Shown here piece after piece: positions 9,800-30,687 of a stretch of 64,000 bases of DNA. Made by a program: the position numbers and the translations under genes. Origin of the DNA: an uncultured Acidobacteriota bacterium (GTDB lineage: Bacteria; Acidobacteriota; Thermoanaerobaculia; Multivoradales; UBA5704); the NCBI GenBank assembly GCA_963770895.1, contig CAVYRF010000002.1, positions 4,480,001 to 4,544,000 of the forward strand, read 5' to 3'. The number at the start of each line of letters is the position of its first letter. Position 1 is the first letter of the stretch. The notes under the pieces are model-generated. The model saw nothing but the letters and a program-made list of their open reading frames with translations, did no database searches and was not told where the DNA came from.

Positions 9800-9894
9800 G
9801 GCAGGAAGACACCCCCGGCGGGGTCGTCGGGTTAGCGCCGGGCCGGCGCGGCCGGCGTGGCCGCGGGGCGCGCGACCCGGCGGGGGCGGAGCGA

Positions 9895-12800
9895 TCAGCT
9901 GCCGAGCAGGCGGCGGAGGCTGGCTGCCAGGGCTGCCACGGCGGGTGGGCGGACGATCGAGTAGTGGTCGCCCGGCAGGGTCTGGATCTCGGTGCCGGCG
10001 CCGGCGAGCGCGGCCCAGGCGTCCGCGGGGTGGGTGCGGGCGCGGCCGGCGGCCGCGGTGGAGCGCCGGGATGCCAGCAGCAGGGTGAGCGGGCCGGGGG
10101 CGGCGACGGGGCGGTAGCGGTCGAGCGCCCGGCGCGTGGTCTGGAAGAGGGCGAACAGGCGCTCCACCTCGCCGGCCGCGAGCTCGGCCGGCAGCAGGCC
10201 GGCGCTGTGCGCGGCATCGACCAGGCGGGACAGGGGGACGTCCGCGGCGAAGGTGGCGTCGAGCCGGGCGAGCTGTGCCGCGCCGCCGGACACCAGGCAG
10301 AGGTCGCGCAGGAATTCCTTTTTGAGCTGCGCCGCGGCGGTCGCCCGCGGCGCCGCGGCGCGCCGGAGCGCGGCGGGATCGATCAGCACCAGAGGCTGGA
10401 CGGGGCGCCCGGCGGCGCGCAGCTGGCGCGCCATCTCGTAGGCGATGGCGCCGCCCAGCGACCAGCCGCCCAGGGCGTAGGGGCGGGGCGGCGCCCCGGG
10501 CGCGGCTGGCGGCGGCAGCGCCGCCACGTAGTGGGCGGCCAGCGTTTCGATCGTCGGCTCGGGCCCCAGGTCCACAAGCTCGGGCAGCTGCAAGCCGTAG
10601 AACGGCTGCGCGGGGCCCAGGGCGCGGGCCAGCTCGGCGTAGCACAGGACGTTGCCGCCGGCGGGATGGACGCAGAACAGGGGCCGCACCGGAGCCGCCG
10701 GCGCGTCGGCCGGCGCCGGGCCGGCGGCGGGGGTCAGCTCGACCAGGGCGGTGCGGCGCGCCGGTGTGGCCTGGGCGTCGGTTTGCAGCAGGGCGGCCAG
10801 GCCGGCGACCGTGGGGGCGCGCAGCAGCGCGGCCAGGGGCAGGTCGCGTCCGAAGGTGTCGCGAATCCGCGCCGCCAGGCGCAGGGCGAGCAGCGAGTGG
10901 CCGCCGAGGGCGAAGAAGTTGTCGTCGACGCCCACCGCCGGGCAGGCCAGGACGGCGCGGAAGAGGTCCGCCAGGGCGTGCTCGGCCGGCGTGCGCGGCA
11001 GCGCTCGGACACCGCCGTCGCCGCCGTCGCCGGCTGCCGGCGAGGGATCGGGCAGCGCCTTGCGGTCCAGCTTGCCGTTGGCGTTGAGCGGCAGGGCGTC
11101 GATGAGCATGGTTTCGGCCGGCACCATGTAGGCGGGAAGCCTGGCCGCCAGGGCCTGGCGCAGCTCGGCGAGGAGCGCCGTGCCGGCGGCGCCGGCGGCG
11201 CGCTCCGGCCGCGCCACCACGTAGCCCACCAGGCGATCGTCGCCGCCGCGGTCGCGCACCGCCGCCGCCGCCGCCCGCACGTCCGGGTGGGCGGCGAGCG
11301 CCGCCTCGATCTCGCCCAGCTCGATGCGAAAGCCGCGCACCTTGACCTGGCCGTCGAGGCGCCCCAGGAACTCGACCACGCCGTCGGCGCGCTGGCGGGC
11401 CAGGTCGCCGGTGCGGTAGAGGCGGCTGCCTGCCTCGTCGGGCGAGGCGAAGGGGTTGGGCACGAACGCCGCGGCGGTCAGCTCCGGCCGCCCCAGGTAG
11501 CCGCGCGCCAGGCAGGAGCCGGCGATGCACAGCTCGCCGGACGCGCCGGGCGGCACCGCGCTCAGCGCGCGGTCGAGCAGGTGGAGGCTGGCGCCGGCGA
11601 TCGGCCGGCCGAGCGGCACGGTCTGGCCCGGCGACTCGGCGCCGCAGAGCCATTCGGAGACCGACACGGCCGCCTCGGTGGGGCCGTAGCGCGCGACGAG
11701 CGCCGGCGCCGGCTGGGCCATGGCGGCGTGGTAGCGCGGCGGCAGGTCGCCGGGCACGCGGTCGCCGCCGGTCACCAGGCGGCGCAGCCAGCGGTTGGCG
11801 CGGAACGCGGGCTCGGCGAGCAGCACCGGCCAGAGCGCCGGCGGCAGGGTGAGGTTGGTCACCCGCTCGCCGGCGAGCAGGCTGGCGAGCGCGCCGGCCT
11901 CCTGGTGCCGCTCGGGCGGCACCACCAGCACGGCGCCCCCCATCCACAGCGGCGCGAAGATCTCCACCACCGAGATGTCGAAGGCGAGCCGCGTGCGCTG
12001 GAGCACGCGCGCTCCCGGCGCCAGGTCGGCGGCGACCTGGTAGCGCAGGCGGTTGACCACGGCGCGGTGTGACACCACGACGCCCTTGGGCCTGCCCGTC
12101 GAGCCGGAGGTGTACAGCACGTAGGCCGGGTGGTCGGGGTGCGGCTCCCCCGCCGCGGCGGCAGCGGCCGCCGCGGTTGGCCGGGGAGGCCGCGGGCGCC
12201 GGCCCGGCGCCGGCAGGGCGGCCGGCGCGCCGGGCCGGTCGAGCGGCACGGCGCGGGCGGCGGCGCCAAAGCGCCCGGCCAGCGGCTGGTCGGCCAGGAC
12301 CAGCCGCACTCCGGCGTCGGCCGCCATGCCCGCCAGGCGCTCGGCGGGCAGGGTCGGGTCGAGCGGCAGGTAGGCGCCGCCCGCCTTCAGCACCGCCAGC
12401 AGCGCCACGATGAGCGCGAACGACGGCTCGCCGCAGATGCCGACGACCTGCTCCGGGCCGACCCCCAGCCGGCGCAGCTGCGACGCCAGGCGCTCGACGC
12501 GGCCGGCCAGCTGGCCGTAGCGCAGCGTGCGCCCGCGCCGTCCGTTGCCGGCGGCCGCGGCGCCGCATTCGACCAGCGCCACCGCCTGCGGATGGCGCGC
12601 CGCGTGCCGCTCGAACGGCTGGTGCACCAGGTCGTCGCCGCCGGCGGCCCAGGCGGAGGAGTTCCATTCGATCGTCACCTGGTGCCGCTCGGCGGGGAAG
12701 AGCAGCGGCAGGTCGTGGGTGCGCGCGCCGCCGCCGCCGGCGGCGGCCAGGCCCGCGAGCAGGTTGCACAGGTGTCCGGCCAGGCGTTCGACGGTCGCCG

Positions 12801-15800
12801 GCTCGAACAGGTCGGCACGGTACTCCAGGCCGCCGGCCAGGTCGCCGCCCGTCTCGCGCAGCGCCAGGGTGAGGTCGAAGCGCGCCGCGAGCGTCGGGGC
12901 CGGCATCTCGGCGAGGCGCAGGCCGGCGACGGCGGGCAGCGCGGGCGGCGCCTGCTGCAGGGCGAGCATCGCCTGGAACAGCGGCGTCCGCGACAGGTCG
13001 CGAACCGGCTGCAGGTCGCCGACCAGCTGTTCGAACGGCAGCTCCTGGTGGGCGTAGGCGTCGAGCGCGGTGGCGCGCACCCGCTGCAGCAGCTCGCCGA
13101 TCGCCGGGTTGCCGCCCAGGTCGAGGCGCAGCACCAGGGTGTTGACGAAAAAGCCGACCAGCCCTGCGGTCGCCGGGTGGCCGCGGCCGGCGACCGGCGT
13201 GCCCAGGGTGAGGTCGTGCTGGCCGCTGTAGCGGCCCAGCAGCAGGCCGAATCCGGCGGTGAGCGCCATGAACAGGGTGACGTTCTGGTCGCGGCAGAGC
13301 CGCCCCAGTGCGGCGGCGAGGGGGCGGGAGACGGCCAGGGGACGCACCGCCCCGCGTCCGCTCGGCACGGCGGGGCGCGGCCGGTCGGTCGCCAGCTGCA
13401 GCGGCGGGGCGCCGGCCAGGCGGCGGCGCCAGAAGTCCAGCTCGCCGGCGATCACGGCGGCGGAGAGGCGGCGGCGCTGCCAGGCGGCAAAGTCGGCGTA
13501 CTGGATCGCCAGCTCCGGCAGGCGCGCGGCGGCGGGGCTGACCGCCGCCAGGGCCTGGTACTGCACCGCCAGCTCGTGCACCAGCAGGCGGATCGACCAG
13601 CCGTCGCTGACGATGTGGTGCATCGCCAGCAGCAGCACGTGCTCGCCGTCCGCCAGGCGCAGCAGCGCCGCCCGCAGCAGCGGCGCGCGGCGCAGGTCGA
13701 AGGGACGCCGGCCGAAGGTGACCGCCAGCCGCTCGGCTTCGCGGCGCGCGAGGCGCCGTGCCGCGGCCAGGTCCACCAGCGGCAGGGCGAGCCGGGCGTC
13801 GTCGTCGATCACCTGCACGGCGTCGCCGTCCGCGGTGGCGCGGAACGCGGTGCGCAGCGATTCGTGGCGGCGCAGGCAGGCGGCCAGGCTGCCGGCCAGC
13901 GCCGCGGGCGACAGCGGGCCGTGCAGCGACACCGCCATCGCCAGGTTGTAGATGGCGTTGCCGGGCGCGAGCCGCTCCAGGAACCACAGCCGCTGCTGCG
14001 CGAACGACGGCGCCATCTCGGCTCTGGGCGCGCTGCGCGCCAGGCGCGGGATGGCGTCGCCGGCGCGGCCGTCCGCCAGGCGCGCCGCCAGCTCCGCCGG
14101 CGTCGGCGCCTCGAACAGGGTGCGGATCGGCAGCTCGCGGCCGAGCTCGGCGGCGACGGCGGCGATCAACCGCATGCCGAGCAGCGAGTGGCCTCCCAGC
14201 TCGAAGAAGTTGTCGTGGATGCCGACGGCGGCGACGCCGAGGAGGCGGCCGAAGATCTCGACCAGGCGCGCCTCGGCAGCGGTGCGCGCGGCCGCCCGCG
14301 GCGCCGCCGGGGCGGCGGGGGTGCCGGCGGCAGGGTCGGCGGCCAGGCGGGCCAGCGCGCGGCGGTCGAGCTTGCCGGTCGGCGTGCGCGGCAGCGCGGC
14401 GAGCTCGACGACGGTCGCCGGCACCATGTACTCCGGCAGGCTGCGCCGCAAGGCTCGCCGCAGGTCGGCGGCGGCGATGGTGGCACCGGCGCGCGGGGTG
14501 ACGCAGGCGGCCAGCTGCCAGCCGCCGTCGCGCGCCTCGATCGGCACCACCGCGGCTTCGCGCACCTCCGGCAGGGCGGCCAGGCGGGCTTCCACTTCCG
14601 CCGGCTCGACGCGGAAGCCGCGGATCTTGCACTGGCGGTCGGCGCGCCCGGCGAAGGCGACCTCGCCGTCAGGCAGGAAACGGCCCAGGTCGCCGGTGAG
14701 GTACAGCCGCTCGCCGGGCACGCCGCCCAGCGGGCAGGGGGCAAACTTCTCCGCCGTGAGCGCGGCGTCGTCCAGGTAGCCGAGCGCCAGGTGGGGGCTG
14801 CGCATGACGATCTGGCCCAGCTCGCCGATGCCGGCCAGGTCGCCGTGGCGGCCGCAGACCAGCAGCTGCGCGTCCTGCATGCCGCGGCCGAGCGGCAGCA
14901 CCTGGTGCGCGCCGCGGCGGTCGCCGCCCGCCTCCAGCGCGTCGGGGTCCGCCACGTGGTAGGCGAGCGCCCGCTGGGTTTCGGTGGCGCCGTACAGGTT
15001 GAGGCAGACCGCCCGCGGCGCCAGGCGGCGGATGCGCGCGGCGTCGCGGCGCGCCAGCGCTTCGCCGATCCACATCACGCAGCGCAGGTCGGGCAGCGGC
15101 GCCACGGCGCCGCCCGGCGGCGGCTCCGCGATCACCTGCGACAGCGCCGGCGTGAGGTTGGCGACGGTGATCCGCGCCGTCGCCATCCAGGCGGCCAGGC
15201 GGCCCGGTTGGGTGATGGCGTCGGCATCGGGGATGACGATCGCGGCCCCCAGGCAGAGCGGCGTGAAGATCTCGCGTTGCAGCGGGTCGTGCGGCAGCGC
15301 CGACAGCATGGCGAAGCGGTCGGCCGCCGACAGGCCGAAGCGCTGCCGCATCCACGGCAGGAAGTGGGTCAGCGAGCCGTGGCGGCCGAGGATGCCCTTG
15401 GGGGTGCCGGTCGAGCCGGAGGTGAAGCCGATGCACGCCAGGTCGTCGGCGCCGGGCTGCCGTTGCCGCGGCGCGCCGGCGGCGCGCGGCGCGATGGGCG
15501 GCTGTGCCGCGAGCCAGGCCCGCAGCGCCGCGGCGCCGCCCCGCGGCAGCACCCAGCGCGGACAGCCGGCGGCGGCGAGCCACGCCGCCACGTCCGGCGG
15601 CGGCTCGCCGGCGGCGGCCAGTCCCAGCCAGGCGCGCGGTTGCGCCAGGCGCAGGATCGTCAGCTGGCGCGCCGGCGGATAGGCGGGATCGAGGATGAAG
15701 AACGCGGCGCCCGCCGCGAACGTCGCCAGCAGCGCCGGCACCAGCGGTGCGCTGCGGTGGGCGTAGATCGCCACCCGGTCGCCGCCGCCGACGCCTGCCG

Positions 15801-18800
15801 CGGCGAGCCGCAGCGCCAGCAGGCGGGCGGCGTCGTGGACCTCGCCGCGGCTCCAGGTGGCGGCGCCGTCCTCGATCGCCGGCCGGTCGGGGTCGCGCCG
15901 CGACTGCTGGGCGAACAGCTGGTCGACCGCGCCGTGCCAGGTGGCGTCCAGCGCCTGCGCCGGGTCGGCGGGGTCGGGCAGCACGGCCGCGGCGCCGGCG
16001 GTGACCAGCGACAGCCGCGCGATCGCTGCGTCGGGGTGCGCCGCGGCCTGGGCGACGACCGCCGCGATCTGCGCCAGCAGGTCCGTCATGCGCGGCGCGT
16101 CGAACAGGTCGGCGTTGTACACCAGCTCGATCGCGATCGCGCCGTCGTCGCCGGGCGGGCGATCGTCGACGTAGAACGTCAGGTCGAACTTGGCGCGCAC
16201 CTCGGGCAGCGGCAGGGTGGCGAGGCGCAGGCCGGTCAGGCGGATCTCGCCCGGCGGCAGGTTGAGCAGGTTGAGCATCACCTGGAAGAGCGGCGTCCGC
16301 GCCAGGTCGCGCTCCGGGCGGAGCTCTGCGAGCAGCGCTTCGAACGGCACGTCCTGGTGGGCGTAGGCGCCCAGCGCGGCGGTGCGGGCCCGTCCCAGCA
16401 GGGTGCGGAAGCTCGGTTCGCCGGAGAGGTCGGCGCGCAGCACCAGGGTGTTGAGGAAGCAGCCGATGAGGGCTTCGGTTTCGACCTGGCGGCGGCCGGC
16501 GACCGGCGCGCCGACGGCGAAGTCGAGCTGGCCGCTGTGGCGGTGCAGCACGACTTCCAGCGCGGCGAGCAGGCCCATGAACAGCGTGGCGCCTTCGCCG
16601 CGGCAGAGGCCGCGCAGGCGCCGGGCGAGATCGGGGTCCAGGCGCAGCTCGCCGCGGCCGCCGCGGTAGGTCTGTGCGGCCGGGCGTGGGCGGTCGGTGG
16701 GCAGGTCCAGGTCCAGGGCCGCCAGGCGGTCGCCGGCCGGGTCCGCCAGCTGGCGGCGCCAGTAGGCCAGCTCGCCGCGCCGCGCGCCGGCCAGGGCGGC
16801 GCGCTGCCAGATGGCGAAGTCGGCGTATTGGATCGGCAGCGGCGGCAGGGTCGGCGCGCGGCGCCGGCGCAGCGCGTCGTACGACTCCGCCAGCTCGCGC
16901 ACGAAGACGCTCGCCGACCAGCCGTCGGCGGCGACGTGGTGCACCACGGCGACGAAGCGGTGCCGCTCCGCCGCCTGGCGCAGCAGCAGGGTTGCGAGCA
17001 GCGGGCCGCGTTGCAGGTCGAGGCGGCGCCCGGCCAGCGCCGCGGTCAGGCGCACGGCCTCCGCCGCGCGCGCCGCGGACGGCAGCGCCGCCAGGTCGGC
17101 GAGCGGCAGCGGCGCGGCGTCCGGAGGCGGCGCGACGCGCTGCACCGGCACGCCGGCGGCGACGGCGAAGGTGGTGCGCAGCGATTCGTGGCGGCGGACC
17201 ACGTGGTGCAGGGCGCCGGCGAGCGCCGGCACGTCGAGCGCGCCGGCCAGCTCGACGGCGAGCGGCATGTTGTAGGTGGGGTCGCCGGGGTCGAGGCGAT
17301 CGAGGAACCACAGGCGCTCCTGGGCGAACGACAGCGGCAGCTCGACGCCTGGGCGGCGCGGGGCGGCGACCAGCGGTGCCGGGGCGGCGCCGCCGCCGGC
17401 CGGGCCGGCGCGCAGCGCCGCGTCGAGCTGCGCCGCGACGGCCGCCACCGTCGGGCGTTCGAACAGGTCGCGCAGCGGCAGCTCCACGGCGCAGCTGCGC
17501 CGCAGGCGGGACACGGCGCGGGTGGCGAGCAGCGAGTGGCCGCCCAGGGCGAAGAAGTCGTCGTGGCGGCCCACGTGGTCGCGCCCCAGGAGCTCGCACC
17601 ACACCGCCGCCACCAGGGCCTCCCACGGGCCGGCGGGCTCGTCGTGGCGGCGCGCGCGGCCGGCGCCGTCGAGGGCGTCGAGGGCGTCGGCGGCGGGGGC
17701 CGCGTCGCCCTCCAGGGCGATCAGGCCGCGCAGGCCGGCCTCGACCCCGGCGGCGGGCGCGGCGGCGCCCGCGGTCCCCTCTGCGTGGTGTGCGACCGGC
17801 GGGGAGCCGGGCGCGCGGGCCGTGCCGGCGGCGGCGCGCGTCAGGGCGGCGCGGTCGAGCTTGCCGTGGGCGTTGCGCGGCAGCGCGTCCAGAGCGAAGA
17901 AGCGCGCCGGGACCATGTGCTCGGGGAGGCGCCGGCGCAGCCAGCGGCGCAGGTTCATGCCGCGCGCGGCGGCGGCCGTGGCGGGCACCACGAAGGCCGC
18001 CAGCGCCGCGGCGCCGGCGGCCGGCGCCGTCACCACCGCCACCTCGCGCACGCCGCCGTGGGCCGCGAGCGCGGCTTCGATCTCCGCCGGCTCGACGCGG
18101 AAGCCGCGGATCTTCACCTGGCGGTCGAGGCGGCCGAGAAATTCCAGCTGACCGTCCGGCCGCCAGCGCCCGCGGTCGCCGGTGCGGTAGAGGCGCGCGC
18201 CGGCGCCGCCCAGCGGGTCGGGCACGAACCGCGCCGCGGTGCGGGCGGGCTCGGACAGGTAGCCGCGCGCCACGCCGGCGCCGCCCAGGGCGATCTCGCC
18301 GGCGACGCCGGCGGCTGCCGCGGCGCCCCACCCGTCGAGCACCCGCAGCACCACGCCGGCGAGCGGGCGGCCCAGCGGCACGGAGCCGGGCGCCGCGCCG
18401 GTTGCGGTCGCCGCGGGCGTCGCCGGCGCCGCGGCGACGCGATGCACGGTCGCCACGACGGTTGCCTCGGTGGGACCGTAGGTGTTGAACAGCGCCACGC
18501 GGCCGCCGAAGCGCCGCTGCCACTGCGCCACGCGGGCCGGCAGCACGCGCTCGCCGCCCAGCACCACGGCGCGGACGCTGGCCGGCAGGCCGTCGCCGTC
18601 CGCGGCCGTGGCGGCCTGACAGATCTCGTGCCACCAGGCGGTGGGCAGCGTCAGCAGGGTGACGGCCTGCTCGCGGCAGCGATCCAGAAAGCTGGCGGCG
18701 GCGCGGCGCATCGGATCGCTTGCCACCACCAGCGTGGCGCCGCTGGCCAGCGCCGGAAAGATCTCCTCGACGCTCAGGTCGAAGCCGGGGGAGGCGAAGT

Positions 18801-21800: not shown

Positions 21801-24800
21801 CTGGTGACGTCCACCGCCGCCTCGGTCGGGCCGTACAGGTTGTGCAGCGGCGCCCCGACCGCCGCCGCGTGCTGCTGCATCAGCTGGTAGGACAGCGCCT
21901 CGCCGCTCGCCATCACCCGCCGCAGGCTCGCCAGGCCCCCAGGGCTCGCAGCGGTCCCGTCGGGCAGCGCGTCGACGAAGGCGGCGAGCATCGCCGGCAC
22001 GAAGTGCAGGGTGGTGATCGCCTCGGCGGCGATGGCGTGCCGCAGGTAGGCCGGATCGCCGTGGGCGCCGGGCTGCGCCATCACCAGGCGGGCGCCGGTG
22101 AGCAGCGGCCAGAACAGCTCCCAGACCGAAACGTCGAAGCTCCACGGCGTCTTTTGCAGCACCCGGTCGTCGCCCGCCAGGCCGTAGCGCTGCTGCATCC
22201 ACAGCAGGCGGTTGACGATGCCGCGGTGGGTGTTCATCGTCCCCTTGGGCCGCCCGGTCGAACCCGAGGTGTAGATCACGTACGCCAGGTTGTCCGGCGT
22301 CGCCAGGGGCGGCAGGTCGCGCTGGGAGCCGCGCCGCCAGCTGTCGTCGTCCAGCCAGAGCGTGCGCAGCTCCGGCGGCAGCGGCTCGCCCAGGCGCGCG
22401 GCGAGCCGGCGCTGGGCCAGCAGCACGTGGGCGCCGCCGTCGGCCAGCATGAAGCGCAGGCGCTCGGGCGGGTAGCCCGGATCGAGCGGCAGGTAGGCGC
22501 CGCCCGCCTTGAGGATGGCGACCAGGCCGACCGTGGCGGCGACCGACCGTTCGGCGCAGATCGCCGCCACCGTCTCAGGCCCCACGCCCCAGCGCCGCAG
22601 CTGCCGCGCCATCTGGTTGGCGGCGCCGTTGAGCGCGCCGAAGCTGAGGCAGTCGCCGGCCGCGTCGGCCACGGCGATCGCCTGCGGGCTGCGCCGCGCC
22701 TGCTCTTCGATCAGCGCGTGCAGGCAGCGCGGGCCGCCGCCGGCCGCGACCCCCCGGCGCTGCCAGTCTTCCCAGGCGACCTGGGTATCGTTCCACTCCA
22801 GCAGCTGCTGGCGATCGCTCGCACCGAGCAGCGGCACGTCGTCCAGGCAGCGGCGCGGGTCGCCGGCGAGCGCCTCGAGCAGCAGCCGGTAGTGCGCCGC
22901 CAGGCGCTTGATGGTGGCGGCGTCGAACAGGTCGCGGCTGTGCTCGAAGGTCAGCTCCAGGCCGGCGGCGGTGTCCACGGCTTGCAGCGAGAGGTCGAGC
23001 TTGGCCGTCGCGGTGTCGATCTCGCGCAGCTCCAGCTGGAGCGTGCCGCCGTCCGGCACGGCGATCGGCGCCACCCGGCGGTCGGCGGCGTTTTGCAGCA
23101 CCAGCAGGGCCTGCAACAGCGGCGCCGCGGCCAGGTCCCGCACCGGCGCCAGCTCCTCGACCAGCCTGTCGAAGGGCAGCTCCTGGTGCGCGAAGGCGTC
23201 CAGGCTCGCCTGGCGCACCCGCGCCAGCATCGCGCCCGCCGGCGGCCGGCCGGCGGTGCTGGCGCGCAGCGCGAGCGTGTTGACGAAGCAGCCGATCAGG
23301 CCTTCGATCTCCAGGCGGTCGCGGTTGGCGACGGGCGTGCCCACGACGACGTCCTGCTGGGCCGACCAGCGCGCCAGCAGGGCGGCGAAGGCCGCCAGCA
23401 GCGCCATGAACAGCGTCGCGCCGGCGCGCTGCGCCGCCTGGCGCACCTCGCCGGCGAGCGCCGGCGGCACGACGACCACCGTGCGCCCGCCGCGCAGGCT
23501 TTGCGCCGGCGGCCGCGGCCGATCGGCGGGCAGCGCCAGACGCGCCGGCGCCCCCGCCAGCGCCAGCCGCCAGTGGCGCAGCGCAGCCTCCAGCCGCTCG
23601 CCGGCCAGCTGGGCGCGCTGCCAGGCGGCATAGTCGACGTACTGCACCGGCAGCTCGGCCAGGGCGGGAGCCGCGGCGCCCGCCAGGGCGGGGTAGATGG
23701 CCGCCAGCTCGCGCAGGAAGACGCCGATGGACCAGCCGTCGCCCACGATGTGGTGCAGCACCAGGATCAATTGGTGATCGCACGCCCCCAGCCGCGCCAC
23801 CACGGTGCGCAGCAGCGGCCCGCGCGCCAGGTCGAAGGGTTGGCAGCCCAGCCGCGAGGCCAGCGCCTGCGCCGCGGCGGGCGCCGCCGTCTCCGCCGCC
23901 GCGAGGGCGGAGAGATCCACCAACGGCGTGGGCAGTGTGAAGTTCGCCAGCAGCTCTGACATCGGCTGTCCGGCGGCCGCCGGGTACGCGGTGCGCAGCA
24001 CCTGGTGGCGGCCGGCGATGGCGCGCAGGCTGGCGGCCAGCGCCGCCAGGTTCAGCGGGCCGCGCAGGTGGAGCGCCCCCGCCAGGTTGTAGGCGGCGCT
24101 GCCGGGCGCCAGCCGGTCGAGGAACCACAGGCGCTCCTGGGCGAACGACAGCGGCGGCGGCGCGGCCGGCAGCCGTCGCGGGATGGGCGCCGGCGCGTCC
24201 GGCAGGCGTTGGGCGAGGCGCGCCGCCAGCCGCCGCACGGTGGGATGCTCGAACTGCTCGCGCAGCGCCAGCTCGCCGCCGGTGGCCGCGCGCAGGCGCG
24301 CCGTCACCTGGGCGGCAAACAGCGACTGCCCGCCCAGGGCGAAGAAGTCGTCGTCGGCGCCGACGGGCGCGACCCCCAGGACCTGCTGCCAGATGCCGGC
24401 GATCAGCTGCTCCAGGCCGGGCCGCGGCGCGGCGAAGGCGGGGCGGTCGCCGTCCGCGCCGGGCGCCGGGCCGGGCAGCGCCTGGCGGTCCAGCTTGCCG
24501 CTGGCGGTGAGCGGCAGGGCGGCCAGCGCCACCACCTGCGCCGGGACCATGGCGGCGGGCAGGCGCGCCAGCAGCCACGAGCGCAGCGCGCCGGGGTCGA
24601 CCGTCGCGGCGCCGGGGGCGGGCACCACGAACGCCACCAGGCGGCGCGGCTCGCCGCGCGCCGCGACCGCTGCCGCGCCCACCGCCGGATGGCGCGCCAG
24701 CGCGGTTTCGATCTCGGCGGGCTCGATGCGTACGCCGCGGATCTTGAGCTGGAAATCGCCGCGTCCCAGGTAGTCGATCGCGCCGTCCGCCAGGTGCCGC

Positions 24801-27800
24801 GCCAGGTCGCCGGTGCGGTAGAGCCGGGCGCCGCCGCCGGCGAAGGGGTCGGGCACGAACTTTTCGGCGGTCAGGTCGGGCCGGCGCAGATAGCCGCGGG
24901 CGAGCTGCACGCCGCCGATGTGGAGCTCGCCCGCCACGCCCGCCGGCACCTGGCGCCCGGCCTTGTCGAGCAGGTGGATGCGGGTGTTGGCGACCGGCCG
25001 GCCGATCGGCACCAGCCGACGCGAGCCCGCCGGGTCGCAGGCCCAGGCGGTGACTTCGACCGCGGCCTCGGTCGGGCCGTAGAGGTTGTGCAGCGGCGCG
25101 CCCACCGCGGCGTGGAAGCGCTGCTGCAGGTCGTAGGGCAGCGCTTCGCCGCTCGCCAGCACGCGGCGCAGGTGGCGCCAGCGCGGCCCTGCCGCCGCCG
25201 GCGCCGCCGGCAGGGCCTCCACCGCGGCAAGGAACGAACGCAGCATCGCCGGCACGAAGTGGACGATGGTGACGTCGAGCCTGGCCAGGGCGTCGACCAG
25301 GTAGGCGTCGTCCAGGTGGCCGCCGGGGCGGGCCATGACCAGCTGGGCGCCGGCCGCGAGCGGCCAGAACAGCTCCCACACCGAAACGTCGAACCCCACC
25401 GGCGTCTTTTGCAGCACCCGGTCGGCCGGCGCTGCCGGCACGCCCGGCGGGGCTGCGGGTGACAGGGGGTGGCATCGCTCGGCCCAGCGCAGGCGGTTGA
25501 CGATGCCGCGATGGGTGTTCATGGCGCCCTTGGGCCGCCCGGTCGAGCCCGAGGTGAAGATCACGTAGGCGAGGTTTGCCGGCCCGGCGCCGTCGATCGG
25601 CGCCGCCACCGATGCCGCCGACGCCGCCGATGCCGCCGACGAGGCCGATGCCGGTGACGGCCAGGGCCGGGCGCCGCGGCGTGACCAGGGCGCGGCGGGG
25701 TCGTCGAGGGGCACCGTCGCGATGGCCGGCGTCCCCAGGCGCGCGGCAAGGCCGTCCTGGGCGACCGCCAGGGTCGCGCCCGCGTCCTCCAACATGAGGC
25801 GCAGCCGCTCCGCCGGCGCGTCGGGTTCGAGCGGCAGGTAGGCGCCGCCCGCCTTCAAGATGCCGAGGAGCCCCACCACCAGGGCGACCGACCGCTCGGC
25901 GCAGATCGGCACCACCGCGTCGGGCTGCACCCCCAGCTGCCGCAGGCGCTGCGCCAGCGCATCGGCGCGCGCGTCGAGCTCGCCATAGGTCAGGTGCGCC
26001 GGCGGCAGGCCGCCGGCCGGGTCGTCGACCACCGCCACCGCGTGCGGGGCGCGCCGCGCCTGCCGCTCGATCAGCTGGTGCAGGCAGCGGTCGGCGGCGG
26101 CCCAGGCGACCGCCGTGTCGTTGCCTTCGACCAGCTGCTGGCGCTCGGCGGCGGTCAGCAGCGGCAGCTGCGACAGCGGCGCCGCGCTGCCCGCGGGGGC
26201 GCCGCCGGGGCCGGCGGCCGCGGGGCTGGCGACCGCGGCGGCGAGCACCTGGAGGTGTCCGCCCAGGCGGCGGATGGTCGCGGCGTCGAACAGGTCGCGG
26301 TTGAACACCAGCGATGCGGCCACCGCGCCGTCGATCAGGGCCGTCGCCAGAGTGAGATCGAATTGGGCGGCGCGTTGCGGCAGGGCGACGCTCGCCAGCT
26401 CGATGCCGCCCAGGTCGAGACGCCCGCCGGTCGCTCCCAGCGCCACGGCCGCCAGCCCGCGCTCGCCGGCCGCGCCTTCGCGGTAGTGCACGAACATCAC
26501 CTGGAAGAGCGGCGAGCGGCTGGGATCGCGCTCGCCGCCCAGCCGCTCGGCGAGCCGCGCGAAGGGGTAGCGCTGGTGTGCCAGCGCCGCGATCACCGTG
26601 TCGCGCACCCGGCGCAGCAGCTCCGCGAAGGGCGGGTCGCCGGCGCAGTCGCCGACCGCCACCACCGGGTTCACAAGGTAGCCGACCAGGCCGTCCAGGC
26701 CGCGGTCGCCGCGGCCCGCCGTGGGCGTGCCCACGCGCACGGTCTCCTGGCCGCTGTGGCGGTGGAGCAGCGCCACCAACAGGGCGAGCAGGGTCATGAA
26801 GGGCGTCGCCCCCGTGCGTTCGCCCAGGGCGCGCAGGCGCGCGGTCGTGGCGGTGTCGATCGCCAGCGGCAGCGAGCCGCCGCGGGCCGTCTGCACCGGC
26901 GGCCGCGGCCGGTCGGCGGGCAGCGCCAGGGGCGGCGCCGTGGCTGGCAGGACGGCGCTCCAATACGCTTCGTCGGCGCGCCGGCGCGGTGCGTCGTCCT
27001 CCCAGCCCCGCTCCTGGGCGGCGAGCGCCCGGTGATAGGCGCCGGCGTCGAGCGGCGGCAGCGCGTCGCCGCGGTAGAGCGCTCCCAGGTCGCCGAGCAG
27101 GATGCCGAGCGAGCCGAAATCGGCGGCGACGTGGTGCACCGCGAGCGCCAGCCAGGGCGGCGCACCGGCGCGGCGGTAGACGGCGAGGCGCAGGAGCGGC
27201 CCGCGGCCGAGGTCGAAAGGCGTCTCCGCCCACTCGGCGAGGTGGGCGCGCAGGCGATCGTCGCTCCAGCCGCCGGCGTCCACCTCCGCGAGCTCGACAC
27301 CGGGCTCCGCATGGACCTCCTGGACGAAGGATTCGCCTTCCTGGACGAAAGCGCTGCGCAGCGGCGGATGGCGCGCCGCGACCGCCGCCAGCGCCCGCCG
27401 CAGCCGCGCCGCGTCCAGGCTGCCGCGCACCACCCGCGCCGCGCCGGCCAGGATGTAGGCCGGGTTGCCGGGGATCAGGCGGTCGAGCAGCAGCAGCGCC
27501 CGCTGGCCGGGCGAGGCCGGATACCGTGTCGCCGTCGGCGTCGGTGTCGCCGTCGGTATGGTGTCGGTGGCTGGGGCCGGCGCGGCTGGAGCCGCCGTGG
27601 GTCGGGCCGGCGTGGGTCGGGCCGCGAGTTTGGCCCGCTGCAGGCGCCGGTGCCGTGCGACCGCGGCTCGCAGCTCGGCCAGGGTCGGCCCTTCCAGCAG
27701 CTCGGCGATCGGCACCGCCACTCCCAGGTCCGTCTCGATGGCGCCGGCCAGCTCGGCGGCGGCGAGCGAGTCCAAACCCAGGGTGACGAGGGACCGGTCT

Positions 27801-27907
27801 TCCGGCAGCCGCGCGCCATCGATGCCAAGGGCGCGTCCCGCCAGCTCCGAAAGATGCGACGCCAGCACGGCGCGGCGCGGCCGCGCAACAGCACCGGGCG
27901 CTTTCAT
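9895..27907 (-). CDS. multimodular NRPS T0-C-A(Ser-like)-T-C-A(Ser)-T-C-A(basic aa-like)-T-C-A(Lys2/Aad-like)-T-C-A(unknown)-T-TE, ~6003 aa after correcting a +1 frameshift at ~19420
   Basis: Carrier motifs LGLDSL, LGGQSL and 4x LGGHSL. C-domain motifs HHVAADF, HHIVGDG, HHIVSDA, HHVAADG, HHIVSDG. Five A domains with (Y/F)TSGSTGxPKG, YGxTE, TGD and GKxDR. TE GWSLG...GDHY. Track ORFs 14669..27907 (valid to ~19430) and 9895..19053 differ by one base of frame. Confidence 0.93.
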
Positions 27908-28014
27908 AGTTGGATGCCTATATTATCATGCGGCAGCATGCGGACATTCCGGGCATCGGCCGGATCGTAGGTTGCCGACGACATCGCGCCGGCGCCGGCG
28001 TGGGGGGGAGACCT
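27908..28014. promoter_or_regulatory. shared divergent promoter region of NRPS and PEARL
   Basis: 107-bp intergenic with a lone AT-rich patch (ctatattatcat, 27918-27929) giving -10-like hexamers on both strands; GGAG RBS before GTG 28015. Confidence 0.5.
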
Positions 28015-30687
28015 GTGGCGGAGCGGCAGCACCAGGAGGCGAGCGATGGGAGGGACGGCGAGGATCACCTGGTGCGCCTGCCGGGCGAGCAGTTTGCCGT
28101 GTGGACCTGGGCCTCGGTGCGGGGCGCCGGCTTTCCGATCGCCGATCTGCTGCAGCTGGGTAGCGAGGACGCCGCGGCGGCGGCCGATCGCGCGCTGACG
28201 GCGCAGGAGGCGCTGGCGGCGGCGCGGGAGGCGGGGCTGGCTGCCCTGGTCGAGGGTTTCGATCGCTGCCCGCCCCAGTTGCAGCCGCAGTGGCAGGCCG
28301 CCGGCCGCCAGCTGGCGAGGGGCCGGCTGCCGGCGCTGCCGCAGGCCGAGACCGCGGACTTCGCGGCGGCGTTCCAGGCCGCGGCGGCGGCAGGCGACGC
28401 CCACCTGCTGGCCTATGCCGCCGCGCGGCGCCGGCAGTCCGAGGTGCTGCGCCGCGCGGCGGGTGAGCCCAGGCTGCGCGAGGCGGTGACGTGGCAGAAT
28501 CGCCACGCCCTGGCCACGGCCTTCGATCCGCTGTTGCGCCAAGCGGCGGCCGGCGACGGCAGCGGCGATGGCGATGGCGCCGGGGCCAACAAGCAGACCC
28601 GCCGGCACGAGCAGCTGGTGGCGTCCTACCTGCACCGCTACTGCACCAAGAACGACACCATCGGCTTTTTCGGTCCGGTCGGCTGGGCGCGGGTCACGGA
28701 CGCGCCGGTTGCGATCGTCGCCCGTCCGGGGGCGCGGCTGGTCTCCCACCGCAGGGTGTTCTTCGAGACCTGGTGCATCGACGCGGTGGCCGAAGCCCTC
28801 GCCCGCGACCGGCCGCTGCGCCCCTGGCTCACGCCGCGGCAGCTGCCGTTCTTTGTCCTCCAGGGCAACCTGTACATCCCGTTCGCCGGGACGCCCAGCC
28901 AGCTGTCGCCGGCGGAACGCGCCGTCTTCGCCGCTTGCAGGGGACGCCAGACGGCGCTGGAGCTGGCGGCGCGGCTGACGGGCGATCCGGCGGCGGCCGC
29001 AGCCGGCAGCGACGGCGACGGCAAGCTGGACCCGGTGCTCGGGCTGGCGTCGGCGGCGGACGTGTTCGAGGTGCTGGAGAGTCTGGCGGCCAGAGGCATG
29101 ATCGTGTGGCAGATGGAAGTGCCGATGCACCTTGCCGGCGAAGAGGAGCTGGCGCGCATCGTGCGGCGGGTCGCAGACCCGGCGTTGCGCGAGCCGATGC
29201 TGGCCGAGATCGGCGAGCTGGTCGCCGCCCGCGATGCGGTGGCCGCGGCGGCGGGCGACGCCGACCGCCTGCTGGCGGCGTTGGAAGCGCTCGACGGCCG
29301 CTTCCAGCAGTGCACGGGCGGCGCGGCGCGGCGCCTGCCGGGGCAGACCTATGCCGGGCGCACGCTGGTCCACGAAGACTGCCGCCGCGATCTCGACGTC
29401 GAGATCGGCGCCGATTTTCTGGCGGCGCTGGGGCCGCCGCTGTCGCTCGTCCTGATGGGTGCGCGCTGGCTTTGCGAAGAGACGGCGCGGCGCTTTCGCG
29501 GCGAATTTCAGCGCGCCTACGGCGAGCTCTGCGCCGCCTCGGGCGCGACGGCGATCGGCCTGCTGCAGTTCCTGCAAAAGGTGGCGCCGGTGCTGCTCGC
29601 GCCCGGCTCCAGCCTGGTCGCCGCGGTCGCCGCCGAACACGAGCGGCGCTGGTCCGAGATCCTCGCCCTGCCGGCCGGCGAGCGGCGGGTGCAGCTCGCC
29701 GGCGAGCGCATCCAACCGCTGGTGGCCGAGGCGTTCCGGGCGAGCGGGCCGGGCTGGAGGCTGGCCAGGCATCACAGCCCCGACCTGCTGGTGCGCGCAG
29801 CCAGCGTCGAGGCGATCGGCCGCGGCGATTTCCAGGTCGTGCTGGGCGAAGTGCACCTGGCGACCAACACCCTGCGCAATGCGGTGCTGATCGCCCACCA
29901 CCCGCAGCCGCAGGACCTGTGGCGGGCGATGCTGCGCGACATCCCCGACCCCACGGTCATCCCCTGGCTGCCGCGGCGGCGCGACGGCCAGCCGCGCAAA
30001 AACCCGCTGGGCTTCCACGTCATCCCGCGCAGCGCCCGGCTGGAGCTGGGCCTGATCGGCGCCAAGGACCTGCGCCTGGCGCTCGACACCGACCCGCCCG
30101 GCGACCCGCACGCCACCACCCTGTTTCTGGGCGACTGCCTGGTGACCGAGCGCGGCGGCGCCCTGTCGGTGGTGACCCGCGACGGCTCGCAGTGCATGGA
30201 CGTCGTGGACTTCTGCGAGCTGGCCATCTCCGTGCACACGATCAACAGCTTCCGCCTGCTGTCGGGCCGGCCGCACACGCCGCGCATCGCCATCGACAAG
30301 CTGATCGTGCAGCGCGAGCTGTGGCGCGTGCCGCTGGCGGACATTCCTGTCGCCGCCGCGCGCCCCGGCGCCGATCGCTTCCTGGCGGCGCGCGCCTTCG
30401 TGCGGCGGCATCGCCTGCCGCGCTTCGTCTTCGTCGGCTCGCCCTACGAAAAAAAACCCTTCTGCGTGGACTTTGCCAGCCCGGCGGCGATCGAGATCTT
30501 CGCCCGCGCCTGCCGCGGCGCGCAGGAAAAAGGCGGCCCCGACGTGCAGATCGCCATCTCCGAGATGCTGCCCGAGCCGGAGCAGACCTGGCTGCCGGGC
30601 CCCCACGGCGAGCGCTACACCAGCGAGCTGCGCCTGGTCGCGGTCGATCGCGCCGGCCGCTCCGGAGCGACGGCTGGAAGCACCTGA
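28015..30687 (+). CDS. stand-alone lantibiotic dehydratase N-terminal (glutamylation) domain protein, PEARL (peptide aminoacyl-tRNA ligase)-like
   Basis: VRGAGFP, LREAVTWQN, YLHRYCTKNDTIGFFGP, YAGRTLVHEDCRR, HHSPD, VLGEVH, TPRIAIDKLIVQRELW, EKKPFCVDF, SEMLP, YTSELR; ~890 aa with no LanB elimination domain. GTG start chosen from the RBS (track start 27910). Confidence 0.85.
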   Translation: MAERQHQEASDGRDGEDHLVRLPGEQFAVWTWASVRGAGFPIADLLQLGSEDAAAAADRALTAQEALAAAREAGLAALVEGFDRCPPQLQPQWQAAGRQLARGRLPALPQAETADFAAAFQAAAAAGDAHLLAYAAARRRQSEVLRRAAGEPRLREAVTWQNRHALATAFDPLLRQAAAGDGSGDGDGAGANKQTRRHEQLVASYLHRYCTKNDTIGFFGPVGWARVTDAPVAIVARPGARLVSHRRVFFETWCIDAVAEALARDRPLRPWLTPRQLPFFVLQGNLYIPFAGTPSQLSPAERAVFAACRGRQTALELAARLTGDPAAAAAGSDGDGKLDPVLGLASAADVFEVLESLAARGMIVWQMEVPMHLAGEEELARIVRRVADPALREPMLAEIGELVAARDAVAAAAGDADRLLAALEALDGRFQQCTGGAARRLPGQTYAGRTLVHEDCRRDLDVEIGADFLAALGPPLSLVLMGARWLCEETARRFRGEFQRAYGELCAASGATAIGLLQFLQKVAPVLLAPGSSLVAAVAAEHERRWSEILALPAGERRVQLAGERIQPLVAEAFRASGPGWRLARHHSPDLLVRAASVEAIGRGDFQVVLGEVHLATNTLRNAVLIAHHPQPQDLWRAMLRDIPDPTVIPWLPRRRDGQPRKNPLGFHVIPRSARLELGLIGAKDLRLALDTDPPGDPHATTLFLGDCLVTERGGALSVVTRDGSQCMDVVDFCELAISVHTINSFRLLSGRPHTPRIAIDKLIVQRELWRVPLADIPVAAARPGADRFLAARAFVRRHRLPRFVFVGSPYEKKPFCVDFASPAAIEIFARACRGAQEKGGPDVQIAISEMLPEPEQTWLPGPHGERYTSELRLVAVDRAGRSGATAGST

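What the first reader, a model, noticed from the sequence alone, without database searches (positions are those of the whole stretch)
9895..30687. NRPS-PEARL hybrid cluster with no precursor peptide and no ureido module: candidate tRNA-dependent branching of a nonribosomal peptide
Seen: a five-module NRPS and a ~890-aa LanB-glutamylation-only protein are head-to-head across 107 bp. No LanB elimination domain, LanC or plausible short precursor ORF flanks them. Known: such small LanBs (PEARLs, e.g. TglB and the BhaB enzymes) use ATP and aminoacyl-tRNA to add an amino acid to a free peptide carboxylate. As I recall, the NRPS-linked PEARL case studied in Stackebrandtia relies on a ureido-forming C domain to expose that carboxylate. 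Seen: all five C domains here keep HHxxxD rather than the EHxxxD-type ureido motif. Inference: the free carboxylate must come from elsewhere. Options are the alpha-COOH left when module 4 (Lys2-like) links a diacid through its side chain, the C-terminus released by the TE, or a diacid starter on T0. The first would give a branched peptide built jointly by NRPS and tRNA chemistry.
Basis: partly seen in the sequence, partly recalled or inferred. Interest (0 to 1): 0.9.

Follow-up and report, generated by a model that had tools for sequence, protein, structure and literature searches.

The report
Lipopeptide synthetase beside a tRNA-dependent ligase
A five-module peptide-making enzyme sits back to back with an enzyme of the kind that uses a charged tRNA to add one more amino acid to a free acid group; such pairs turn out to be common, but how they work when the known "ureido" trick is missing is still open.

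Summary
On the minus strand, 27907 to 9895, lies one NRPS: T0-C1-A1-T1-C2-A2-T2-C3-A3-T3-C4-A4-T4-C5-A5-T5-TE. It is broken by a single frameshift beside G/C runs in the C3-A3 linker. Across 107 bp, an 890-aa protein (28015-30687) matches only Lant_dehydr_N. The window holds no elimination domain, LanC, tRNA gene or obvious precursor. None of the five C domains has the EHHxxHDG ureido motif. A4 is Lys2-like (code DPRNMILRA).

- The protein keeps residues that match the ATP/Mg and tRNA-CCA residues reported for PEARLs. The genome's own full LanB lacks them.
- NRPS-linked relatives without a ureido domain are the rule: 66 of 80 loci carry NRPS domains, and 2 of 80 have the ureido motif.
- T0-C1 is a lipoinitiation unit, not a diacid loader. 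The same genome uses it at least ten times without a PEARL.
- DPR-type A domains occur three more times in this genome without a PEARL, and in 4 of 80 PEARL loci. That link is weak.

Best reading: a lipopentapeptide gains one amino acid on a free carboxylate through ATP and aminoacyl-tRNA. Which carboxylate is unresolved. This is a new variant of the SnaE-type class, of moderate interest.

The parts
28015..30687 (+). PEARL-like gene (Lant_dehydr_N only). It is 890 aa from the GTG at 28015. Alternative starts are the ATG at 27928 and the TTG at 27910.
   Evidence: Residues D590, E612, H614, R757, E871 and R873 are 97-100% conserved in 89 family members.
27908..28014 (.). 107-bp divergent intergenic region between the NRPS start and the PEARL start
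19450..27907 (-). NRPS, first reading frame: T0-C1-A1-T1-C2-A2-T2-C3
27647..27874 (-). T0, an N-terminal carrier domain with no A domain in cis. It is of the type that follows FAAL domains.
26228..27514 (-). C1 (VHHVAADFG), a member of the lipoinitiation C clade
19420..19445 (-). Approximate site of the single frameshift in the C3-A3 linker, beside G6/G5 runs
   Evidence: Not verifiable from public contigs.
9895..19482 (-). NRPS, second reading frame: A3-T3-C4-A4-T4-C5-A5-T5-TE
14353..15945 (-). A4, a Lys2-like adenylation domain with code DPRNMILRA
9937..10686 (-). Terminal thioesterase domain
7640..9800 (-). CHAT plus FGE-sulfatase fusion gene directly downstream of the NRPS on the same strand. 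Start not fixed; membership of the cluster unknown.

Best explanation
This is a two-gene cluster for an N-acylated pentapeptide that is extended by one amino acid taken from a charged tRNA.

Inferred pathway:
1. A fatty acyl group is loaded on T0 by a fatty acyl-AMP ligase encoded elsewhere in the genome.
2. C1 joins it to the first residue. A1 and A2 have codes that I recall as Ser-like.
3. Modules 2 to 5 extend the chain, and module 4 uses a Lys2-like A domain.
4. The TE releases the product.
5. The 890-aa protein acts as a PEARL-type ligase. It phosphorylates a free carboxylate of the product with ATP, lets the amino group of an aminoacyl-tRNA attack it, and the tRNA is then hydrolysed off.

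Shown here: the domain order, the fold, the conserved residues and the family-wide NRPS linkage.

Inferred: every chemical step, the acyl starter and the site of addition.

My split for the site, given that the enzyme is a PEARL:
- C-terminal alpha-carboxylate after hydrolytic release: about 0.4
- Pendant alpha-carboxylate of a side-chain-linked diacid at position 4: about 0.3
- Another acidic side chain, or an on-line step on a carrier-bound intermediate: about 0.3
For: Fold:
- Pfam finds Lant_dehydr_N only.
- The AF2 model has pLDDT 84.5.
- Foldseek's best hits are the glutamylation domains TbtB (9.4e-23), MibB, GodF, MadB and NisB.

PEARL-type residues:
- D590, E612, H614, R757, E871 and R873 are 97-100% conserved in 89 family sequences.
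- Their order and spacing match Asp558, Glu575, Arg715 and Glu813-x-Arg815 of BhaBC-Trp (PMC11962472 section 10).
- The helix at 193-211 carries R196/R197, Q200, Y205 and R208. This matches Arg197, Gln201, Tyr205 and Arg208 in helix 193-211 of BhaBC-Trp.
- The same genome's full-length LanB has V, G, A and V where the PEARL family has D590, E612, H614 and R873 (partly aligned by eye).

No dehydratase partner:
- The only stand-alone Lant_dehydr_C is 1.17 Mb away, beside its own divergent N-like protein.

NRPS linkage of the family:
- 57 of 80 loci have a C domain and 66 of 80 have some NRPS domain.
- Of the 43 loci with at least 8 kb on both sides, 40 have an NRPS domain.

Precedent:
- SnaE adds Thr to a free carboxylate of an NRPS product (PMC11212132).

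Lipoinitiation:
- C1 clusters with C domains that follow FAAL-T.
- That A type is a fatty acyl-AMP ligase by NCBIfam, 1.2e-121.
- T0's top six hits among 146 locus T domains are all FAAL-T-C.
- FAAL homologues exist elsewhere in the genome.
Against: - No characterised PEARL (TglB, BhaB, AmmB, SnaE) could be aligned, because no tool gave me their sequences. The residue matches rest on order, spacing and numbering, not on an alignment.
- Pfam and the PDB cannot tell PEARLs from LanB glutamylation domains.
- The NRPS carries a frameshift, so the cluster may be dead. I could not check this in reads.
- No orthologous cluster was found in 40 relatives; the best PEARL match is 45% identical. Conservation of this pair is therefore unshown.
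- No FAAL, MbtH or transporter gene lies next to the cluster.
- In 16 actinomycete loci the homologue is fused behind C-A-T in one ORF. That hints that at least some family members act on carrier-bound intermediates, not on released acids.
- The A1/A2 Ser assignment and the acidic or basic guesses for A3 and A5 rest on codes recalled from memory.
Confidence: 0.55

Rival explanations
1. Module 4 activates the distal carboxylate of an aminoadipate-like diacid. Its alpha-carboxylate is left pendant in mid-chain, and the PEARL adds an amino acid there. The product would be a branched lipopeptide built by NRPS and tRNA chemistry together.
For: - A4's best family hit is the Lys2 model TIGR03443 (1.2e-119, 400.7 bits), against 336.6 bits for the generic adenylation model.
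- Its code is DPRNMILRA.
- DPR-type A domains recur in four PEARL-linked loci from three phyla: L007, L024, L065 and L083.
- An N-acylated alpha-carboxylate of this kind would resemble the C-terminal residue that PEARLs normally act on (inference).
Against: - Only 4 of 80 loci have a DPR A domain within 10 kb.
- In this genome 4 of 256 full A domains are DPR-type. The other three are internal C-A-T modules of NRPSs with no PEARL anywhere near.
- The substrate of bacterial DPR-type A domains is not known to me, and two literature searches gave nothing useful.
Confidence: 0.17
2. The enzyme works on the assembly line, not on a released acid. It would either attack a carrier-bound thioester with aminoacyl-tRNA, or load a carrier domain from aminoacyl-tRNA as a stand-in for an A domain.
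For: - In 16 actinomycete loci, C-A-T and the homologue lie in one stop-to-stop ORF.
- A-less C-T modules or T-first genes sit directly beside the homologue in L005, L031, L065, L083, L075, L026 and L082.
- The paper notes fusions to T and TE domains, and leaves open whether SnaE acts on-line.
Against: - In this window the gene stands alone and is divergent.
- T0 is explained as a lipoinitiation carrier. It recurs at least ten times in the genome without a PEARL.
- The ATP-type residues are conserved, which would be unnecessary for attack on a thioester.
Confidence: 0.12
3. It is a LanB-type acyl transferase. It would esterify the Ser side chains of residues 1 and 2 from an aminoacyl-tRNA, possibly leading to dehydroalanine.
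For: - A1 and A2 have codes DVWHLSLVE and DVWHMSLVD, which I recall as Ser-like.
- The fold is that of glutamylation domains.
Against: - No elimination domain lies in the window. The only stand-alone one is 1.17 Mb away with its own partner.
- The residues that separate this family from the genome's own LanB match the ATP/Mg set of PEARLs.
Confidence: 0.06
4. The cluster is a relic. The frameshift is real, the NRPS is not made whole, and the pair has no current product.
For: - A single frameshift lies in the C3-A3 linker.
- No orthologous cluster was found in 40 relatives.
- The upstream frame runs on for about 1,590 nonsense codons, and the downstream frame has its first start inside A3.
Against: - Both frames are otherwise open over 18 kb with GC3 of 0.96. 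That argues against long decay.
- The shift lies beside G6/G5 runs.
- The genome is a 3-contig assembly from soil metagenome data. Length errors in base runs are a known assembly artefact (inference).
- No C or A domain in the genome is itself split across ORFs: 0 found.
Confidence: 0.1

Closest known systems
SnaE and the sna cluster of Stackebrandtia nassauensis (threopeptin; Yu and van der Donk 2024, PMC11212132)
   Same: - A Lant_dehydr_N-only enzyme encoded beside an NRPS.
- No carrier or precursor peptide and no elimination domain.
- Proposed ATP- and aminoacyl-tRNA-dependent addition of one amino acid to a free carboxylate of a nonribosomal product.
- The two genome loci whose homologue is sister to this one (L038, L041; support 0.916) do carry an EHHxxHDG C domain.
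   Different: - None of the five C domains here has EHHxxHDG, so the carboxylate cannot come from ureido chain reversal.
- There is no PKS, MbtH or stand-alone TE gene.
- The NRPS is a five-module line with lipoinitiation and a TE.
- I could not align SnaE itself.
RiPP-type PEARLs (TglB, BhaB enzymes, AmmB enzymes)
   Same: - Glutamylation-domain fold without an elimination domain.
- The conserved Asp, Glu and Glu-x-Arg, and the Arg/Tyr/Arg helix, agree in order and spacing with the residues reported for BhaBC-Trp.
   Different: - No ribosomal carrier peptide gene was found beside it.
- The partner is an NRPS.
Class I lanthipeptide dehydratases and split LanBs (NisB, MibB, TbtB, GodF)
   Same: Same fold: Foldseek 9.4e-23 to 2.5e-14, TM 0.45-0.64. 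Same Pfam family.
   Different: - No elimination domain, LanC or precursor in the window.
- The family-specific residues D590, E612, H614 and R873 are replaced in the genome's own full LanB.
FAAL-ACP-C lipoinitiation units of lipopeptide synthetases
   Same: C1 and T0 cluster with the C and T domains that follow fatty acyl-AMP ligase domains in 11 related loci and in this genome.
   Different: The ligase is not encoded in cis or in the window.

Membership tests
PEARL (peptide aminoacyl-tRNA ligase) | Lant_dehydr_N (glutamylation) fold with no Lant_dehydr_C domain in the protein | tested here: met
   Pfam finds only PF04738. The AF2 model's Foldseek hits are glutamylation domains. All 120 listed homologues carry PF04738 only.
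PEARL (peptide aminoacyl-tRNA ligase) | No elimination-domain gene in the neighbourhood | tested here: met
   The genome search finds PF14028 at two places only, 0.67 and 1.17 Mb from the gene. The window's ORFs have no such hit.
PEARL (peptide aminoacyl-tRNA ligase) | Extra conserved residues for ATP-dependent phosphorylation (Asp, Glu, Glu-x-Arg) | tested here: inconclusive
   D590, E612, E871 and R873 are 97-100% conserved in 89 sequences. The genome's own LanB has V, G and V where the PEARL family has D590, E612 and R873, but keeps a Glu at the E871 position. The match to the BhaBC-Trp residues rests on order and spacing only. No characterised PEARL was aligned, and Fig. S12 of PMC11212132 is a supplement I could not see.
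PEARL (peptide aminoacyl-tRNA ligase) | Conserved Arg/Tyr/Arg helix that binds the tRNA 3'-CCA end | tested here: inconclusive
   Helix 193-211 of the model carries invariant R196, R197, Q200, Y205 and R208. This compares with Arg197, Gln201, Tyr205 and Arg208 in helix 193-211 of BhaBC-Trp. LanBs share tRNA-binding residues, so this does not discriminate.
PEARL (peptide aminoacyl-tRNA ligase) | Clusters with TglB, BhaB and SnaE, not with LanBs, in a phylogeny | not tested
PEARL (peptide aminoacyl-tRNA ligase) | ATP- and aminoacyl-tRNA-dependent amide formation at a carboxylate | not testable with these tools
   Needs biochemistry.
SnaE-type NRPS-linked PEARL | Encoded beside NRPS or PKS genes, with no carrier peptide | tested here: met
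   Divergent from the NRPS across 107 bp. Family linkage: 66 of 80 loci carry NRPS domains. No convincing short ORF.
SnaE-type NRPS-linked PEARL | A ureido-forming C domain (EHHxxHDG) supplies the free carboxylate | tested here: not met
   The five C motifs are VHHVAADFG, LHHIVGDGW, VHHIVSDAW, VHHVAADGW and MHHIVSDGW. My genome scan printed no Curea-like motif among 305 C-domain hits.
Class I or split LanB dehydratase | Elimination domain, LanC and precursor peptide in the cluster | tested here: not met
FAAL-ACP-C lipoinitiation unit | C domain in the clade that follows FAAL-T, and a carrier domain of the FAAL-linked type | tested here: met
   C tree of 127 domains. FAAL identity by NCBIfam, 1.2e-121. 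T0's top six hits are FAAL-T-C.
FAAL-ACP-C lipoinitiation unit | Fatty acyl-AMP ligase in cis | tested here: not met
   There is no A-type domain before T0. FAAL-type domains lie elsewhere in the genome, and one sits in a 647-aa frame.
Lys2 / alpha-aminoadipate-type adenylation domain | Best match to the Lys2 model, and D-P-R at pocket positions 235, 236 and 239 | tested here: met
   TIGR03443 at 1.2e-119 over profile positions 233-647. This is below the whole-protein cut-off, because only the A domain is present. Code DPRNMILRA.
Lys2 / alpha-aminoadipate-type adenylation domain | Activates the distal carboxylate of alpha-aminoadipate | not testable with these tools
   Needs a substrate assay.

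The most novel reading that the evidence does not exclude
The PEARL adds an amino acid from a charged tRNA to a pendant alpha-carboxylate left in mid-chain, where the Lys2-like module 4 links a diacid through its side chain. The product would be a branched lipopeptide made jointly by thiotemplate and tRNA chemistry. More broadly, this family would be a general, non-ureido way for assembly lines to extend carboxylates that they cannot activate themselves.
Probability: 0.17. Interest if true: 0.8.

Novelty: new variant of a known kind. Interest (0 to 1): 0.48.

Why it matters
Only one NRPS-linked PEARL has been characterised. It depends on a ureido-forming C domain to expose a carboxylate. In my sample, 78 of 80 related loci lack that motif, and so does this one, so the published mechanism cannot explain most of the class.

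This cluster is unusually compact. It has one NRPS gene and one ligase gene with housekeeping flanks, which makes it a clean test case for where a non-ureido PEARL acts. The answer would improve structure prediction for about two thousand clusters (the paper's count). It could also give a tool for adding amino acids to nonribosomal peptides.

Against this, the class is already flagged in print, the NRPS carries an unverified frameshift, and the organism is an uncultured soil bacterium.

Tried and rejected
1. C1 as a new chain-reversal domain. C1 (HHxxxDF) sits in the same position as the ureido C domain in PEARL-linked lines, so I first took it for a new counterpart of that domain. I rejected this. 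The A domain before such C domains is a fatty acyl-AMP ligase. The same T-C start also occurs at least ten times in this genome without a PEARL.

2. A specific PEARL / DPR-A-domain link. Rejected as unsupported.

3. The stand-alone Lant_dehydr_C as a distant partner. Rejected. It lies 1.17 Mb away beside a 939-aa protein that weakly resembles the C-terminal part of the family (hhalign probability 57%, E 1e-4).

4. Context of the closest relatives (57-65% identical; P0006-P0011). Two metagenome scans found none of them, so their context is unknown.

5. Read check of the frameshift. Four soil-metagenome runs hold 21-26% of the words. Their contigs do not bridge window 19420-19450, so nothing can be said either way.

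6. Frameshifts as a general assembly fault. Six C-to-A or A-to-T steps in the genome change ORF, all in linkers, and three of the six lie beside runs of five or more G. No C or A domain is itself split. This is inconclusive.

7. PDB search by sequence. The single protein gave no meaningful hit. The profile found TbtB at 7.5e-13.

8. Literature on pocket codes. A search with recalled codes found nothing. A word search gave no paper on bacterial DPR-type domains. A search for later work on NRPS-linked PEARLs (terms 'lantibiotic dehydratase', 'NRPS', 'PEARL', from 2024) found only PMC11212132.

I did not use the look-up of encoding contigs, which was declared closed. Supplements are closed. Fig. 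S12 and Tables S2/S3 of PMC11212132 and the SI of PMC11962472 may bear on the residue comparison.
Full report
**What is there**

The window is G+C-rich, 0.65-0.79, with the NRPS region highest at about 0.78. It lies in an 8.16-Mb, three-contig genome at C2:4480001-4544000.

On the minus strand, two long frames overlap: 27907-14669 and 19053-9895. Translation shows that the first is a real protein only down to '...AREWGEAP'. The second frame picks up upstream of its first ATG, with '...GLHQLVEAQARAAPDAVAV...'. One indel therefore separates them, in the C3-A3 linker, beside G6 and G5 runs at window 19420 and 19436.

Pfam on the two frames gives five Condensation, five AMP-binding, six PP-binding and one Thioesterase domain. 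A BLAST of the window's own domains orders them as T0-C1-A1-T1-C2-A2-T2-C3 | A3-T3-C4-A4-T4-C5-A5-T5-TE.

On the plus strand, the ORF 27910-30687 matches only Lant_dehydr_N, at 2.8e-37.

The flanks are:
- a CHAT plus FGE-sulfatase gene (7640 to about 9800, minus strand);
- a GT22-like membrane protein and an M16 peptidase;
- a TPR protein, LexA, an aminotransferase and MGMT;
- formate-THF ligase, FolD, an MFS transporter and others.

The window holds no tRNA gene and no LanC-like match; 14 exist in the genome, all outside the window. It holds no Lant_dehydr_C; two exist in the genome, both outside. No convincing short ORF lies beside the gene.

**The ligase-like protein**

An AF2 model built on 17 sequences is confident: pLDDT 84.5, pTM 0.86. 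Its best PDB matches are the glutamylation domains TbtB (9.4e-23), MibB, GodF, MadB and NisB. A profile of the family finds TbtB by sequence at 7.5e-13.

No solved PEARL appeared in these searches, so fold alone cannot separate PEARL from LanB. I therefore used the residues reported for BhaBC-Trp (PMC11962472, sections 10 and 11):
- Asp558 and Glu575 bind Mg.
- Arg715 and Phe755 bind adenine.
- Glu813-x-Arg815 contacts the ribose, the gamma-phosphate and the substrate carboxylate.
- Arg197, Gln201, Tyr205 and Arg208, in helix 193-211, bind the tRNA CCA end.

In 89 family sequences from the loci, the following are 97-100% conserved: D590, E612, H614, R757, E871 and R873, together with the R...Y..R helix. 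The model's helix spans 193-211.

The genome's own full-length LanB can be aligned to the family profile over two stretches. Reading on from those anchors by eye, it has V, G, A and V where the family has D590, E612, H614 and R873.

This favours an ATP-using PEARL over a glutamyl transferase. It is still a match of order and spacing, not an alignment to a characterised PEARL.

**The family and its neighbours**

The protein has more than 1,000 relatives, at about 40% identity, among 8,000 scored candidates. All 120 listed carry PF04738 only. The closest, at 57-65%, are from metagenomes, and I could not fetch their contigs.

A scan of species-representative genomes found 547 relatives, and I kept the best 80 loci. 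They come from Acidobacteriota, Chloroflexota, Actinomycetota, Myxococcota and others. I scanned them with HMMs built from the window's own domains:
- 57 of 80 loci have a C domain.
- 66 of 80 have some NRPS domain.
- Of the 43 with at least 8 kb on both sides, 40 have an NRPS domain.

The ureido motif EHHxxHD occurs in 2 of 80 loci, L038 and L041. These two are the sister group of the window's protein in a FastTree of 89 sequences, with local support 0.916.

The paper that founded the class (PMC11212132) says three relevant things. About two thousand NRPS/PKS clusters encode such enzymes. Some are fused to T or TE domains. SnaE is probably the first of a broader class. The pairing is therefore known. 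The non-ureido form is common and uncharacterised.

**T0-C1**

In a tree of 127 C domains, C1 (VHHVAADFG) falls in a distinct clade whose motif is HHxxxD[F/L]. In the loci, every such C domain follows an A-T pair whose A domain has a DMxGFGCLx-type code. That A domain is a fatty acyl-AMP ligase by NCBIfam: PRK05850 at 1.2e-121 and FadD32 at 1e-111.

T0's six best matches among 146 locus T domains are all FAAL-T-C carriers.

The window's genome carries about 300 each of C, A and T domain hits. It uses the same T-C start at least ten times, and FAAL-C three times, with only one PEARL in the whole genome.

T0-C1 is thus the organism's ordinary lipoinitiation head. It is not a PEARL-specific device, and it is unlikely to be a diacid loader.

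**A domains**

Pocket codes were read off an alignment anchored on A1 motifs:
- A1 DVWHLSLVE
- A2 DVWHMSLVD
- A3 DLETVGTVV
- A4 DPRNMILRA
- A5 DIVTVGRVS

I recall the first two as Ser-like. The other assignments are guesses.

A4 scores higher against the Lys2 model (400.7 bits) than against the generic adenylation model (336.6 bits). DPR-type codes occur in L007, L024, L065 and L083, so 5 of 123 A domains including the window's. They also occur in 4 of 256 A domains of this genome. The other three are internal modules of PEARL-less synthetases.

**Rival partner**

The only stand-alone elimination-domain gene lies at C2:3.339 Mb. It has no NRPS domain within 40 kb. It sits beside a JmjC protein and a 939-aa protein that weakly resembles the family's C-terminal part. 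It probably has its own partner.

**Relatives**

In 40 related genomes the best match is 45% identical. Twelve genomes have strong, near-full or half-length matches, several of them in tandem. No orthologue of this cluster was found in those genomes.

**Frameshift**

Public contigs from four soil-metagenome runs of one study do not bridge the site. Whether it is real stays open.

**Verdict**

The most likely mechanism is a PEARL-type, ATP- and tRNA-dependent addition of one amino acid to a free carboxylate of a lipopentapeptide. The site of addition is unresolved. This is a new variant of a known kind, and of moderate interest as a compact test case.

Noticed in passing
Whole genome G000 (C1, C2): The NRPS load is extraordinary. 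HMMs built from the window's domains hit 305 C, 297 A, 288 T and 9 TE domains in 8.16 Mb. Open frames reach 12,745 aa.
   Followed up: partly
L013, L050-L053, L056, L060, L063, L067, L068, L073, L074, L077, L078, L084: In 16 actinomycete loci, a C-A-T module and the PEARL homologue lie in one stop-to-stop ORF, 4-592 nt apart. A gene starting with C-A-T follows. These look like C-A-T-PEARL fusion proteins placed in line.
   Followed up: partly
L005, L031, L065, L083, L082, L075, L026: C-T modules with no A domain, or genes that begin with a T domain, sit directly next to the PEARL homologue. This might mean that the enzyme serves a carrier domain.
   Followed up: no
L038:5056-14355 and L041:5121-14419: The sister loci of the window's PEARL read FAAL-(T)-C(AHHLVTDGR) | PEARL | A-T-C(EHHxIHDGW)-A-T... 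A lipoinitiation unit and a ureido module thus flank the ligase.
   Followed up: partly
L016, L037, L066, L076; G025:C9:118555-128739: Two to four PEARL homologues lie in tandem with no NRPS domain nearby. These may be carrier-peptide systems.
   Followed up: no
G000:C2:3334840-3340623 (L109:2840-8623): A stand-alone Lant_dehydr_C gene lies beside a JmjC protein and a 939-aa protein with no Pfam hit. That protein weakly resembles the C-terminal part of LanB-N/PEARL proteins.
   Followed up: partly
G000: C2:2132427, C2:2176019, C2:4098612, C2:4499508, C1:945964, C1:1029662: Six C-to-A or A-to-T steps change ORF within 78-210 nt. All are in linkers, and no C or A domain is itself split. Three of the six lie beside runs of five or more G.
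   Followed up: partly
Window 7640-9800 (-): A gene fusing a CHAT domain (7.7e-29) to an FGE-sulfatase domain (7.3e-46) follows the NRPS stop on the same strand. A second CHAT gene lies near the stand-alone Lant_dehydr_C.
   Followed up: no
L007:3294-6564; L065:14129-17393; L083: DPR[HN]FGFQ-type A domains are followed by a C-like domain with no HH motif. In L007 a domain with code DLYNLSLIW comes next, which I recall as Cys-like. This is a recurring pair in Blastocatellia and Streptomyces.
   Followed up: no
Window 10001-28000 against the flanks: The NRPS has G+C of 0.76-0.79, while the flanks at 30-36 kb have 0.66-0.70. The cause could be composition bias of the protein or a foreign origin. 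I did not resolve this.
   Followed up: no
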